From the IMG/VR virus record IMGVR_UViG_3300046526_000553, positions 64,001-128,000 of that record: a stretch of 64,000 nt of DNA, one strand, 5' to 3'. Under the pieces are notes generated by a model that saw only the letters and a program-made list of their open reading frames with translations, had not been told where the DNA came from and ran no database searches. The number at the start of each line of letters is the position of its first letter. Positions within the stretch are counted from its first letter, which is position 1. A program made the position numbers and the translations under genes. This stretch comes from a virus. Lineage: Duplodnaviria; Caudoviricetes. This document shows, piece by piece, positions 11,815 to 61,835 of the stretch.

Positions 11815-12426
11815 ACCTGTGTTAGGAGAAGAGTAAAGCCATGCCTTGCCTGCCTTTCCGTACCAACAAGCGCTACCTCGACCGGACACAACTCAACTCG
11901 TCTTGAGGCGACCGGACTCGTGGCGACTCGCCTGCCATGGCTGGACGCTTCGAGACTCGCGATGACCGGACCGGACATCCACGACTCGCTCAGACCTAGC
12001 GCTCCCAGTCACATCTGGACTCGCCGGGACGTGGCTTGACTCACCTGCACTACCTTGATTATGCGGAAACCGGTCATGACAAAACCTATCTCGAAACGTC
12101 TCGTCTCAACACAACATGCCTGCCTTGAGGAGACTTGACGCACCTGGACCTAACTCGACTCGGCTCAACTCGTCGTGAGGAGACTTGACCGGACACTCCT
12201 AGCCTGCCATGAATTGACTCACCTTGACCCGTCAGGAGATGACTTGACCGGACGCACCTCGTCTTGCCTGCCCTGCCTGGACAACCCCAACTTGCCACGA
12301 AAAGAGGTGTCTGAACTTATTGCGACTTTCCCAGCCTGCTATTCCACTCCATGTCATGCCTAGACAATCGCACCGGGACATGACGTGACGAAACGTGACT
12401 CGCCTGCCCTGTCTAAGTTATTAGAC
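11815..12426 (-). ncRNA. VIPR-like guide array A: units of G(G/T/A)Y-NN pentamers separated by GGCA
   Basis: strict 5-nt periodicity, e.g. ggcta ggagt gtccg gtcaa gtctc ctcac gacga gttga gccga gtcga; about 8 units delimited by GGCAGGC. Confidence 0.85.
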
Positions 12427-12996
12427 CTAGACCGGAACAGCTACAAATCCATTAGTCGTACTAATATCTTCGTTTTTACTGTTCTTATCAGCTCCCTTAA
12501 TCCGAGCACGATTTGAAGTTTTCTTCGCCGGTTTAGATATAGCCACATCTTCTTTCTCTTTGGCTTCATCGACCGCTTGCCACACTTTAGCTAATTCAAC
12601 AATATGCTTGTATTTATTCTCAACATTAGTTAATTCAACTAAAGCAGTTTTTAAAAACTGTTCCCGTAAGTCTGGACGTTCCAAAACATCTGTCGTCCAT
12701 CGAAAGCCTCCACCTGCGTCTCTGTCAATATCCAGAGAGGTTAGAACTCTAACTTCGGTATCTAATTGTTCAGAATAAACAGTAAAGCTTTTGATAAGCT
12801 GCCTAGCTTCTTCCAGATTCCAACGATTAGCAGCTTCATCTTTATCCCAAGTGAAAAATTTATGAAGTGGGCTTGATGGCTTTCTAGCTGATTCAACAAG
12901 TGCTTCTTCTTTTAACAAACCATTAGCATCGATGTTCATTAACCTGCTAAATTCAGACTGAACTTCTGCCGTTAGTTTTTTCGGAAAACTATTCAT
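12427..12996 (-). CDS. accessory protein of the RAMP/array operon
   Basis: AAGGAG RBS; GLL..EALVESAR.PSSPLHKFFTWD.DEAA.RW.LEEARQLI motif; sits between RAMP gene and array. Confidence 0.8.
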   Translation of the reverse strand: MNSFPKKLTAEVQSEFSRLMNIDANGLLKEEALVESARKPSSPLHKFFTWDKDEAANRWNLEEARQLIKSFTVYSEQLDTEVRVLTSLDIDRDAGGGFRWTTDVLERPDLREQFLKTALVELTNVENKYKHIVELAKVWQAVDEAKEKEDVAISKPAKKTSNRARIKGADKNSKNEDISTTNGFVAVPV

Positions 12997-13031: not shown

Positions 13032-13170
13032 GGCTGGCGCTGCTGGAGTATAAACCATATTGATTTATTAATCAAGCTTTGCCAGCCTTGCCGTGACGAA
13101 CCACGACTGGTCTTGTGGCATCTGGACTCAACAAGACTCGACTCGCCTGCCAAACATTGCCTTGACTTAT
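13032..13170 (-). ncRNA. single pentamer guide unit plus hairpin between the two operon genes
   Basis: ggca ggcga gtcga gtctt gttga gtcca gatgc cacaa gacca gtcgt ggttc gtcac ggcaa; GGCTGGC/GCCAGCC stem. Confidence 0.75.
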
Positions 13171-13188: not shown

Positions 13189-13884
13189 CTACTTCTTAAC
13201 TTTGCTTACCTTTTTAGCAGGTTCCTTACCATCACTAGGGCTTGGGCTCTCGACATCAAATGTGCCAAAACCCAAACCAGCTGATGCTCGTGAATCAGGT
13301 CTTCCTTCACCTAGACCAACTTGCAGACCAACTCGACGGAGCAAATTTAACATATCTTCCAATGAAAATTGGTCTTCGTCAAATTTTATGACTGGCAAAG
13401 CATACCATTCACGCCACAAAGGACGAACACGAATGTCAAAAACACCTGTTGCATTTCTTACAGCAGCTTCGTTTCTTTCAGGTTCCCCGTAGATGCGTAC
13501 TAAAGGTTGCCCATCAACTTTGTCGAAACCTTGAGCTTTAACAAAGATGGAAAGCTTTGCGCGAGTCATTGTGAACCCAGTCAAACGACATGCACTGATG
13601 GCTGCAGCTCGAATAGATGAAGCTGGAATCCCAATCCAACCCTCAATGCTCTTATGCATTGCTTGGTGGTAATCATCATCGAAGTTACGGGCTTCCCGTA
13701 CTTTCTTGGCTCCTTGCTTAGTTGAGCCATCCATTTTGCTCATCATCGCTTGCATAGCTTTTTGGCTAAAGCGAGATTGCATATACGGTGCATTACCTTT
13801 CAATTTAACCTGCACCGCTTTTATACGAGGCGCTGAAATTGCAACAGCGACCTCTTTTTTAGTAGATTTTTTTGGACTTGGCAT
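13189..13884 (-). CDS. Cas7/RAMP-superfamily-like protein (Vipr-like)
   Basis: beta1 VKLKGNAPY, GIPASSIRAAAISA (RAMP IPxSS helix), C-terminal Gly-rich loop GLGEGRP...GLGFGTFDV; no cas1/2/3/5 or CRISPR nearby. Confidence 0.8.
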   Translation of the reverse strand: MPSPKKSTKKEVAVAISAPRIKAVQVKLKGNAPYMQSRFSQKAMQAMMSKMDGSTKQGAKKVREARNFDDDYHQAMHKSIEGWIGIPASSIRAAAISACRLTGFTMTRAKLSIFVKAQGFDKVDGQPLVRIYGEPERNEAAVRNATGVFDIRVRPLWREWYALPVIKFDEDQFSLEDMLNLLRRVGLQVGLGEGRPDSRASAGLGFGTFDVESPSPSDGKEPAKKVSKVKK

Positions 13885-13923: not shown

Positions 13924-13952
13924 ACTATACACCAACGTAACAATTATGTCAA
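13924..13952 (-). promoter_or_regulatory. promoter of RAMP operon
   Basis: TTGACA-17 nt (ending TTGGTG)-TATAGT. Confidence 0.8.
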
Positions 13953-60919: not shown

Positions 60920-60948
60920 TTGACATTTCCGTTACGCTGGTGTATATT
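60920..60948 (+). promoter_or_regulatory. promoter of array B
   Basis: TTGACA-17 nt (ending CTGGTG)-TATATT, 7 nt before first pentamer. Confidence 0.8.
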
Positions 60949-60955
60949 AATTATT

Positions 60956-61835
60956 GGCTTGGATAGTCCTGCTTAGACACCTCTGGGCTCGGTGCGTCAC
61001 GGCTAGGCGAGGCAGGCGAGTTGAGTCTGGTCTCGGTGCGTCGTGGCACGTCGTGGTGCGTTGTGGTAATCGGAGCGGGGCAGGTTATGTTCAGGCAAGT
61101 CGGGGCTACGCAGGCACGTCGCCATTTGGCTAGATACGGTTAGTCTAGATATGTTTAGACAGGGCATGGCAGGCAAGGCTGGGTTCCGATGACTCGTTGG
61201 GGCTGGTCGTCACGAGTCACGGCTAGGCGAGGCAGGCTAGGAAAGTCGGGATGCGTCCCGCCATGTCGAGGCGCGTGATGACATGACAAGATATGGACAG
61301 GCAGGCTTGGCACCGATGTCGCGGTCAGTCGAGACCTGTCAGGGTCAGACTAAGCATGGCAGGCGGGGGAAGTCGCGTCGGGTTGAGCCGGGGTTTGGTT
61401 TGTCGGGTCTTGAGTTAGCGTGTTCTGTTGAGGTTAGGCAGGCAAGTCGTTTCTTGGTATGTCTCCTCGTGGCACGTCGAGTCATGTCAAGGCGTTACAC
61501 GGCAGGCATGACGTGGATGGCGAGTTCCGACGAGTCCGTGCGAGATTAGGCAATGCAGGCAAGATGTGACAGGTTCTGTTGTGTCGAGTTTTGTCAGGTT
61601 GGGGCGTAGCTAAGCAATGCATGGCAGGCAAGTCGAGTCCCGGTTAATCGGGTCGAGTCCGGACGAGTCTTGGCGGGGCGAGGTAAGGTGCGATTATTAT
61701 TGACTTTTAGGTGGTGTTGGTGTAATGTATATTATTGGCGGGGAATGTCGAGGCATACTGAGTTAAGTCTTGGTGAGTCAGGTCGAGACTAGTCAATGCA
61801 GGTACGTCGAGGTTTATTATGTCGAGTCAAGGCTT
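60956..61835 (+). ncRNA. VIPR-like guide array B (stand-alone, ~14 units, second internal promoter 61700-61728)
   Basis: G(G/T/A)Y-NN periodicity, GGCA/TGCA separators, GC-rich island in AT-rich DNA. Confidence 0.85.

What the first reader, a model, noticed from the sequence alone, without database searches (positions are those of the whole stretch)
12046..12268. Decoded guides spell serine-recombinase catalytic motifs when every third target base is skipped
Unit 12121-12204 has NN = TA GT CG AA TC AC GA GA GA GA AG CA GC AA TC. Read as codon positions 1-2 this is Y-V-R-K-S-T-[DE]x4-R-Q-A-[KN]-S, the YxRxS...Q nucleophile motif of serine recombinases. The next unit (12046-12120) has AT GT GA GA GT GA AG TT AT CG TC AT = I-V-[DE]-[DE]-V-D-R-F-M-R-S-I, the DRxxR motif of the same family. 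Unit 12205-12268 gives K-E-A-R-K-I-L-G-K, which I associate from memory with small genes beside CPR serine recombinases. Each NN allows one or two residues and I chose the fitting one. Inference: guides match coding DNA with the wobble base skipped, so synonymous escape is impossible, and they target an integrative competitor or satellite. No serine recombinase is encoded in this window.
Basis: partly seen in the sequence, partly recalled or inferred. Interest (0 to 1): 0.97.

Follow-up and report, generated by a model that had tools for sequence, protein, structure and literature searches.

The report
Phage guide RNAs aimed at serine recombinases
This stretch belongs to a phage-borne array of VIPR guide RNAs (a CRISPR-related system described in 2026 preprints), and at least four of its guides read, two bases per codon, conserved parts of large serine recombinase genes, or a small gene just upstream of one, in mobile elements of Saccharibacteria; that is a clear new example of a strategy already shown for an E. 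coli phage.

Summary
Window 11850-12408 (minus strand) is a 5-nt-periodic array: a semi-fixed G-K-Y triplet plus a variable NN, with units separated by a 4-nt GGCA register shift. It lies downstream of a 231-aa Vipr homologue and a 189-aa partner gene.

Converted by the published 1-nt-skip rule, the three units match real genes.
- **Unit 12121-12204:** matches the catalytic-serine motif YVRKSTEDEERQ of a large serine recombinase (LSR) lineage. Of 49 exact 9-NN seed hits, 47 are this motif. The best full match is 29/32 read bases.
- **Unit 12046-12120:** matches the DRxxR motif (IVDEVDRFMRSI) of a second LSR lineage. It is 24/24 in four species. It hit 17/401 Saccharimonadia genomes against 0 for the backward control, and gap-0 and gap-2 versions gave 0.
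- **Unit 12205-12268:** matches a small ORF directly upstream of a third LSR lineage, in two loci only, at 20-21/24.

A fourth unit (11855-11936) hits a fourth LSR lineage in about 40 species. Nearly all hits are in Saccharibacteria or related Patescibacteria MAGs. The phage itself has no such gene.

Also, wobble skipping and recombinase targeting are already published (bioRxiv 2026.04.26.720920 and 2026.10.15.759431). This scan had already noted this phage's VIPR operon and distal array. This is a new member of a known kind.

The parts
13924..13952 (-). Sigma-70-like promoter of the vipr operon (TTGACA, 17 nt, TATAGT)
   Evidence: Matches 11 of 12 consensus positions. The distal array at about 60950 has a near-identical promoter.
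13189..13884 (-). vipr gene: 231-aa RAMP/Cas7-like protein that would coat the guide RNA
   Evidence: A profile of 10 homologues hits only the SUSP1 Vipr protein in the PDB (36pp_D, E 6.4e-6). The AF2 model (pLDDT 72) has Csm3/Cas7 subunits as top Foldseek hits (E 3e-5). All 11 IMG/VR relatives carry 5-nt-periodic arrays beside the gene.
13076..13151 (-). Lone vrRNA unit between vipr and vap (11 NN); the guide matches vipr genes of other phages
   Evidence: The 10-NN seed gave 3 IMG/VR hits, all at DDFEQAKHVS of Vipr homologues (20-21/22). The phage's own vipr scores 14/22 at the same site, and nothing in the window reaches 18/22.
12427..12996 (-). 189-aa partner gene in the position of a vap (Vipr accessory protein)
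   Evidence: Position only. No Pfam family was found. Homology to the published vap1-6 was not tested.
11850..12408 (-). Main vrRNA array: about 8 abutting units of (G-K-Y + NN) pentamers, each opened by GGCAGGC (a 4-nt GGCA register shift)
   Evidence: Periodicity and parsing are. GC is 0.55-0.60 against about 0.37 in the flanks. No Rfam family matches.
12209..12272 (-).
   Evidence: The first 10 NN are exact in L098:1741-1769 and L096:3129-3157. Both sites are small ORFs (53 and 74 aa) directly upstream of a 523- or 535-aa LSR that abuts a tRNA.
12125..12208 (-).
   Evidence: 47 of 49 seed loci are LSR N-termini with Resolvase+Recombinase+Zn_ribbon_recom domains. The best matches are 28-29/32. 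10/151 Saccharimonadia genomes matched against 0 for the control.
12050..12124 (-).
   Evidence: 24/24 in L062, L068, L081 and L091. 17/401 genomes matched against 0 for the control, and gap-0 and gap-2 gave 0.
11937..12049 (-). Unit(s) U6, with an internal 1-nt register slip; target not found
   Evidence: Parsing is. No window reached 19/20 or more in any fetched locus. The viral contigs seed gave 0.
11855..11936 (-). Unit U7, 15 NN, decoded EAERAKDEVRD..
   Evidence: The 10-NN seed gave 47 loci. 41 are in frame at LLEAERAKDEVRDI, about residue 150 of a 565-610-aa Resolvase+Recombinase+Zn-ribbon protein. 35 records are named Saccharibacteria/Saccharimonad*. The best match is 27/30.
12273..12408 (-). 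Units U1 and a degenerate U2; targets not found
   Evidence: Parsing is. No significant local hits.
61623..61695 (+). One guide of the distal array; it matches a DUF3768 gene in the same element type that U7 hits
   Evidence: 21/26 (first 10 NN 19/20) at NDPYGEHDFG of L139:4986-5318 and of L148, about 2 kb from the LSR gene. Pfam DUF3768 E 7e-25.

Best explanation
The stretch is part of a VIPR guide array of a roughly 144-kb phage that most likely infects Saccharibacteria.

Shown here: the operon is promoter, vipr (a RAMP protein), one lone guide, a 189-aa partner gene, then about 8 abutting guide units. Each unit is a run of pentamers in which a G-K-Y triplet alternates with a variable dinucleotide. 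The NN strings of four units, read with one target base skipped, coincide in frame with conserved codon strings of four different lineages of large serine recombinases, or with a small ORF just upstream of one. These genes sit in tRNA-flanked integrated elements of Saccharibacteria.

Inferred from the SUSP1 work (not tested here): Vipr protomers polymerise on the transcript. They hide each triplet and present each NN. The filament binds double-stranded DNA at NNxNNx sites and blocks transcription. During infection this would silence the recombinase of resident elements (satellite-like or mobilisable islands), so they cannot excise and compete.

Because only codon positions 1 and 2 of catalytic motifs are read, one guide covers dozens of synonymously diverged alleles. 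Escape would require changing conserved residues.
For: - **Array anatomy and strand:**
- **Vipr identity:**. All 11 relatives carry GGC-NN arrays with the same GGCA-GGC junction.
- **Targets:** U4. U5. U3. U7.
- **Skip rule:** gap-1 hit 4 of the same first 101 genomes, gap-2 hit 0 and gap-0 hit 0.
- **Backward-pattern controls:** all 0.
- **Integrated elements:** every one of the 13 target loci scanned except L016 has a tRNA gene at or next to the 3' end of the recombinase gene. Low-GC islands of about 7 kb and 12.5 kb carry cargo genes. One island has a Replic_Relax gene and a DUF3768 gene, and the DUF3768 gene is hit by a second guide from the distal array.
- **Two targets in one host:** one Saccharimonadales genome (G151) holds both a U4-type and a U5-type target.
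- **No self target:** the phage has no Resolvase gene and no site matching U4.
- **Wobble tolerance:** 39 targets exact over 10 NN of U4 are 38 distinct DNA strings, and 42 targets exact over 11 NN of U7 are 37 distinct strings. Skipped positions are about 40% identical between pairs.
- **Published mechanism and precedent:**
Against: - No RNA, binding or repression data exist for this system. Guide ends and processing are unknown.
- U4 has no perfect target in GTDB species genomes, IMG/VR or JGI metagenome contigs.
- The last 2-4 NN of U3, U5 and U7 do not match.
- U3 rests on two loci and gave 0/151 at up to 3 mismatches.
- The triplet here is mostly GTC rather than GGY, so transfer of the SUSP1 structural mechanism is an assumption.
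- The target islands examined lack obvious phage structural genes, so calling them satellites is not shown. Only one (L098) has a small terminase gene.
- The actual host strain and its elements are not known.
- Several other units have no target.
Confidence: 0.8

Rival explanations
1. The guides are aimed at the integrases of rival temperate phages that co-infect or superinfect the same cell, blocking their integration. On this reading they are not aimed at resident satellites or islands.
For: Large serine recombinases are common phage integrases (established knowledge). The published P. fulva clade targets resident prophage regulators. One target element carries a small terminase gene.
Against: None of the U3, U4 or U5 seeds occurs in 2.9 million IMG/VR viral contigs. 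The islands examined are 7-12.5 kb and carry cargo or mobilisation genes, with no capsid or tail genes seen.
Confidence: 0.12
2. The phage immobilises or down-tunes host defence islands. Binding near the recombinase gene would keep islands that carry restriction or ATPase defence genes from excising and amplifying. The benefit would be counter-defence rather than competition with a parasite of the phage.
For: The U4-type island in G151 carries an Mrr-like restriction endonuclease and a T5orf172 protein. The U5-type island carries a 1342-aa AAA ATPase.
Against: No known defence system was identified by a dedicated search, because PADLOC was not run. Silencing the terminal recombinase gene would not by itself silence the cargo genes. 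This reading overlaps the main explanation rather than excluding it.
Confidence: 0.06
3. The matches are numerology. Dinucleotide strings rich in GA can be decoded into acidic, recombinase-like peptides by choosing convenient residues, and the hits are chance.
For: U4 contains four GA in a row. The only perfect U3 match is an unrelated thiE-like gene.
Against: The backward-read patterns have the same composition and gave 0 hits against 17 and 10 genomes for the real patterns. Gap-0 and gap-2 gave 0. 47/49, 7/34 and 41/47 seed hits fall on one homologous site each, nearly all in one bacterial class that is a tiny share of the database.
Confidence: 0.02

Closest known systems
Type II VIPR of Escherichia phage SUSP1 (bioRxiv 10.64898/2026.04.26.720920, .720927 and 10.64898/2026.10.15.759431)
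   Same: Both are phage-encoded and have a vipr gene plus an accessory gene. Both have one guide near vipr and an array after the protein genes. The guides are 9-16 pentamers of a fixed triplet plus NN. Targets follow the 1-nt skip with the skipped base on the codon wobble position. A guide reads active-site codons of the recombinase of an integrated element. Some guides target other vipr genes while sparing their own.
   Different: The Vipr here is very distant (only residues 152-197 align, E 0.003 for the single sequence). The triplet is mostly GTC (G-K-Y) rather than GGY. I saw no long conserved 3' tail or pseudoknot, because units abut through GGCA-GGC. The inferred host is Saccharibacteria, not E. 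coli. At least four guides address four different recombinase lineages, rather than many guides converging on one satellite family. Nothing here is tested experimentally.
'Staggered' vrRNA arrays of other VIPR types (fig. S18 legend of 10.64898/2026.04.26.720920)
   Same: The units follow each other without spacers or tails, so the end of one guide marks the start of the next.
   Different: The figure itself could not be seen. The published overlap is 1 nt, whereas here a 4-nt GGCA shifts the pentamer register. Which of the seven published types this Vipr belongs to was not determined.
Cas7/Csm3 backbone filaments of class 1 CRISPR effectors
   Same: The protein has the RAMP fold (Foldseek E 3e-5 to Csm3 chains). 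The protein subunits impose a periodic interruption of guide-target pairing.
   Different: There is no CRISPR repeat-spacer array and there are no other cas genes. The periodicity is 5 nt in the guide and 3 nt in the target, instead of 6 and 6. The guide information is discontinuous.

Membership tests
VIPR system | A Vipr protein (minimal RAMP homologue) encoded next to the repeats | tested here: met
   The profile hits SUSP1 Vipr 36pp_D at E 6.4e-6, the only PDB hit. The model has a Cas7/Csm3-like fold.
VIPR system | vrRNA of about 9-16 tandem pentamers with a conserved triplet (GGY or a related consensus) alternating with a hypervariable NN | tested here: met
   Units have 8-16 pentamers, the triplet is G-K-Y (mostly GTC), and lag-5 autocorrelation is 0.41. 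Relatives have canonical GGC-NN.
VIPR system | Natural targets follow the 1-nt skip rule, mostly in coding DNA with the skip on the wobble base, at 80% or more NN match | tested here: met
   U5 reaches 24/24, U7 27/30, U4 29/32 and U3 20-21/24, all in frame. Gap-0 and gap-2 controls gave 0.
VIPR system | No self-targeting of the source genome | tested here: met
   U4 has no match at up to 3 mismatches in the 143.8-kb record. The lone guide has no site at 18/22 or better in the window, and its own vipr scores 14/22. The other guides were not checked over the whole genome.
VIPR system | A vap accessory gene of one of the six described families | not tested
   A 189-aa gene occupies the expected place but has no Pfam hit. 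No vap reference sequences were at hand.
VIPR system | vrRNAs are expressed, processed and bound by Vipr, and the complex silences transcription | not testable with these tools
   Only a promoter-like site upstream of vipr was found.
Large serine recombinase (the targets) | N-terminal Resolvase catalytic domain with the YxRxS nucleophile motif and the DRxxR motif, followed by Recombinase and zinc-ribbon domains | tested here: met
   Pfam PF00239, PF07508 and PF13408 for the U4, U7 and U3-adjacent lineages. For the U5 lineage, PF00239 plus a weak PF07508. The motifs are read directly.
Phage satellite (the target elements) | A small integrated element with an excision recombinase, hijacking or packaging genes, and induction by a helper phage | tested here: inconclusive
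   The elements are tRNA-flanked low-GC islands of 7-12.5 kb. One has a small terminase gene. Others carry Replic_Relax, DUF3768, Mrr-like or AAA ATPase genes and no structural genes. Induction cannot be tested here.

The most novel reading that the evidence does not exclude
The array is a standing anti-recombinase arsenal that works at the level of protein motifs. Each guide is tuned to the codon positions 1-2 of an invariant catalytic or structural motif of one serine-recombinase lineage. A single guide would then recognise that lineage in dozens of Saccharibacteria species, whatever its synonymous drift. The phage would therefore be pre-armed against whole classes of integrative elements it has never met. 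This would be innate, family-wide recognition, not allele-specific recognition.
Probability: 0.4. Interest if true: 0.65.

Novelty: new member of a known kind. Interest (0 to 1): 0.5.

Why it matters
- It independently reproduces the central claims of the 2026 VIPR preprints from raw sequence: the gapped 1-nt-skip code, wobble alignment, recombinase active-site targeting, and vipr-versus-vipr guides. It does so in a very distant Vipr clade with a different scaffold triplet, and in a phage of the candidate phyla radiation.
- It assigns natural targets to five guides of an uncultured phage. Through them it gives sequence-level support to Saccharibacteria as the host group.
- It shows that at least four guides of this phage's main array are each aimed at the recombinase gene or module of a different lineage.
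- It shows directly that one gapped guide matches 37-38 distinct synonymous DNA versions of the same motif. This is the practical advantage of the code.
- It also flags a set of small tRNA-integrated elements in Saccharibacteria as likely competitors or parasites of their phages.

Tried and rejected
- **Exact U4 searches.** Full-length or 12-NN patterns gave 0 hits in viral contigs and genome contigs and 0 in metagenome contigs for NN5-16. I switched to 9-10-NN seeds followed by local extension.
- **One gene for U5 and U4.** Tested and rejected. U5 scores only 9-15/28 at the DR motif of the U4-type recombinases.
- **Other guides on the same loci.** I slid 10-NN windows of both arrays and the lone unit over all fetched loci. 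Only U3, U4, U5, U7 and one distal-array guide exceed chance. U1, U2 and U6 remain without targets.
- **IMG/VR seeds.** The U3, U4, U5 and U6a seeds gave 0 hits.
- **U3 in Saccharimonadia.** At up to 3 mismatches it gave 0 hits in 151 genomes.
- **Att repeats.** I looked for repeats of the flanking tRNA within the 8-kb loci and found none of 12 nt or more, as expected for serine integrases. Island limits were therefore estimated from GC dips only.
- **Protein family searches.** Pfam and PHROGs found nothing for the 189-aa partner gene, the small ORFs upstream of the third recombinase lineage, or most island genes.
- **Rfam.** It finds nothing in the array.
- **Early ideas.** TRAP-like or CsrA-like protein-binding RNA repeats and a pentapeptide-repeat coding reading were dropped. 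The periodicity is 5 nt rather than 15, and a Vipr gene and codon-phased targets were found.

Full report
**What is in the sequence**

Window 11840-12430 is a GC-rich island (0.55-0.60, against about 0.37 around it). It has no long ORF and no Rfam match. It has a very strong 5-nt periodicity: base identity is 0.41 at lag 5, 0.38 at lag 10 and 0.36 at lag 15, against about 0.22 at other lags.

On the minus strand, the strand of both flanking genes, it parses into units. Each unit opens with GGCAGGC and continues as pentamers of a semi-fixed triplet (G, then G/T, then a pyrimidine, mostly GTC) followed by a variable dinucleotide. The 4-nt GGCA shifts the pentamer register from one unit to the next.

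**What system it is**

- VIPR systems pair a minimal RAMP protein (Vipr) with vrRNAs made of alternating GGY/NN pentamers.
- Targets are double-stranded DNA sites in which successive NN are separated by one skipped base.
- The skipped base usually falls on the codon wobble position.
- Binding silences transcription.

The gene at 13189-13884 (minus strand) fits this. Its single sequence has SUSP1 Vipr (PDB 36pp_D) as the best PDB hit (E 0.003). A profile of ten homologues hits only that chain (E 6.4e-6). An AlphaFold model (pLDDT 72) finds Csm3/Cas7 subunits first (E 3e-5).

Eleven IMG/VR relatives (51-62% identity) were found, plus Cyanophage Cy-LDV1 (61%). All eleven IMG/VR relatives have 5-nt-periodic arrays next to the gene. 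In the GC-rich relatives these are canonical GGC-NN with the same GGCA-GGC junctions.

The operon here runs as follows:

1. Promoter, 13952-13924.
2. vipr.
3. One lone unit, about 13151-13076.
4. A 189-aa gene, 12996-12427.
5. The array, 12408-11850.

**Testing the decoded targets**

I converted each unit to NNxNNx patterns in the guide's sense and scanned the collections.

*U4 (12125-12208).* Full-length exact patterns gave nothing.

- The exact 9-NN seed found 49 loci in the species-genome collection. 23 are named Saccharibacteria/Saccharimonad* and 9 are other Patescibacteria.
- 47 of the 49 are in frame on YVRKST(E/D)(E/D)(E/D).. at the N-terminus of a 500-650-aa protein. These proteins carry Resolvase, Recombinase and zinc-ribbon domains.
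- This is the YxRxS nucleophile motif of serine recombinases (established knowledge of the family).
- Extension gives 28/32 read bases in 22 loci and 29/32 at best, including two of nine metagenome hits.
- The recurrent mismatches are the Arg/Lys codon (AG in the guide, CG or AA in targets), Val (GT against GC) and Leu (CT/TT against AA).

*U5 (12050-12124).* The 9-NN seed gave 34 loci, mostly scattered chance hits.

- The seven best are Saccharibacteria-type MAGs, all at (L/I)(I/F)(V/L)DEVDRFMRS(I/V/M). This lies about residue 80 of a 520-550-aa Resolvase-domain protein that starts ..CRVST..Q.
- In four species the first 12 NN match 24/24. The last two pentamers, whose scaffold triplets are degenerate, do not match.
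- This is the DRxxR motif.

*U3 (12209-12272).* The 10-NN seed gave 10 loci.

- Three are thiE-like genes by my reading of their sequence (no Pfam check was run), including the only 24/24 match, in a Nitrospirae MAG. I regard these as motif convergence.
- Two are Saccharibacteria loci. In both, the site lies in a small ORF (53 and 74 aa..I(S)(I/V)KEARKILGK(E/D)..). That ORF is immediately upstream of a 523- or 535-aa serine recombinase.

- 41 of them lie at LLEAERAKDEVRDI, about residue 150 of a fourth Resolvase+Recombinase+Zn-ribbon lineage.
- 35 of the records are named Saccharibacteria.
- The first 11 NN are exact, and the best overall match is 27/30.

**Controls**

I used an even sample of the class that holds L068 (Saccharimonadia).

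| Pattern | Allowed mismatches | Genomes hit | Backward-read control |
|---|---|---|---|
| U5, 12 NN | up to 3 | 17 of 401 | 0 of 401 |
| U4, 13 NN | up to 3 | 10 of 151 | 0 of 151 |
| U5, gap-1 (first 101 genomes) | up to 3 | 4 | – |
| U5, gap-2 (same 101 genomes) | up to 3 | 0 | 0 |
| U5, gap-0 (same 101 genomes) | up to 3 | 0 | 0 |
| U3, 12 NN | up to 3 | 0 of 151 | 0 of 151 |

- All 17 U5 hits read IVDE(V/P/A)DRFMRSI or close variants.
- U3 targets are therefore rare.
- Forty shuffles of NN order never exceeded 23/32 for U4 on the U4-seed loci. Those loci were chosen with the U4 seed, so this is a weaker control than the backward pattern.
- The phage record (143,778 bases, 94% complete) has no Resolvase gene and no U4-like site.

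**One gene or several?**

The targets are several genes.

- In the U4-type recombinases the DR motif reads AWHPDRLSRN, and U5 scores 9-15/28 there.
- The U4-type and U5-type proteins align only over part of the recombinase domain (24% identity). The U5-type and the U3-adjacent type share 23% identity.
- The array therefore addresses four recombinase lineages.
- One 805-kb Saccharimonadales genome (G151) carries both a U4-type site (2 mismatches) and a U5-type site (3 mismatches) in two separate islands.

**What the target elements are**

- Every recombinase gene I examined except the one in L016 ends at or next to a tRNA gene: Lys, Trp, Met, Arg, Gly or Leu. This is the usual layout of an integrated element.
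- In G151 the islands stand out by low GC. One is about 7 kb, with the recombinase, a 140-aa ORF and a 1342-aa AAA ATPase. The other is about 12.5 kb, with an Mrr-like endonuclease, a T5orf172/FtsK-gamma protein and a CAP-domain protein.
- The U3 element has a small terminase subunit gene next to the small ORF (PHROG 4102, E 1e-19).
- The U7 element has RHH, Replic_Relax, DUF3768 and DUF7249 genes.
- None of the seeds occurs in IMG/VR.
- These are small integrative elements, not recognisable full prophages. Whether they are phage satellites cannot be decided here.

**How it most likely works**

The shown and inferred parts should be kept apart.

- Shown here: the operon anatomy, the Vipr homology and fold, the guide parsing, and the in-frame gapped matches with their controls.
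- Taken from the SUSP1 papers: Vipr polymerises on the guide, sequesters each triplet and presents each NN. The complex binds dsDNA with every third base skipped and blocks transcription. SUSP1 uses this to silence the excision recombinase of its satellite at active-site codons, which keeps the satellite integrated.
- My inference: this phage does the same to resident elements of its Saccharibacteria host. The U4 site sits at about codons 9-24 of its recombinase gene. The U3 site sits in the ORF just upstream of the recombinase gene. The U5 site sits at about codons 77-90, and the U7 site near codon 150.

The advantage of the code can be seen directly. The 39 targets exact over U4's first 10 NN are 38 different DNA strings. 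The 42 targets exact over U7's first 11 NN are 37 different strings. Pairwise identity at skipped positions is only about 40%.

**Comparison and novelty**

This is a VIPR system and meets every defining feature I could test. It differs from the SUSP1 type in four ways:

- the scaffold triplet is GTC-like;
- the units abut and lack a long tail, resembling the 'staggered' arrays mentioned in the preprint;
- the inferred host phylum is different;
- the guides are spread over four recombinase lineages.

The finding is therefore a well-supported new member of a known kind, not a new principle.

Other agents of this scan had already noted the operon and the distal array of this phage. The targets are new here.

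**Limits**

- There is no experimental evidence for this locus.
- U4 and U3 have no perfect target.
- The last NN of several guides do not match, and guide ends are unknown.
- U1, U2, U6 and most distal-array guides have no target.
- All collection scans needed exact seeds, so diverged targets may have been missed.

Noticed in passing
window 13076-13151 (minus strand): The lone guide between vipr and the 189-aa gene matches the site DDFEQAKHVS in Vipr genes of other phages. It scores 20-21/22 in three IMG/VR contigs (L187-L189) and 17-19/22 in several relatives. The phage's own vipr scores only 14/22 at the homologous codons. It looks like a vipr-versus-vipr guide that spares its own gene, as the preprints describe for other clades.
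   Followed up: partly
window 61623-61695 (plus strand), distal array: One guide of the second array matches the DUF3768 gene (NDPYGEHDFG; 21/26, first 10 NN 19/20). That gene lies about 2 kb from the recombinase that U7 hits, in L139 and L148. Two guides from two arrays therefore converge on one element type (tRNA-Leu, recombinase, RHH, Replic_Relax, DUF3768, DUF7249).
   Followed up: partly
window 13924-13952 and about 60935-60965: The vipr operon and the distal array have near-identical promoters (TTGACA, 17 nt including GTTACG(C/T)TGGTG, then TATAGT or TATATT). This suggests co-regulation of both guide sets.
   Followed up: no
L127 (G151:C1:39500-59400) and L128 (G151:C1:647200-667100): A single 805-kb Saccharimonadales genome carries two low-GC tRNA-flanked islands with different serine recombinases. 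Their cargo includes a 1342-aa AAA ATPase, an Mrr-like endonuclease and a T5orf172/FtsK-gamma protein, so they may be defence islands in a very small genome.
   Followed up: partly
G406 (genome of L081, 1.9 Mb): This genome has 11 Resolvase-domain matches, most in frames of 500-640 aa. That is an unusually high load of serine-recombinase elements.
   Followed up: no
H2-H20 (Mycobacterium and Gordonia phages): Hypothetical proteins of many cultured actinophages (for example Donkeykong gp49 and Brocalys gp45) share 28-32% identity with this Vipr over about 160 residues. They may be Vipr homologues in well-studied phages.
   Followed up: no
L001-L011 arrays: In the GC-rich relatives the NN repertoire is of low complexity (mostly AC, GG, CG, GC, AA, AG, TG), and neighbouring units are near-duplicates. 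This suggests recent unit duplication as a way of making new guides.
   Followed up: no
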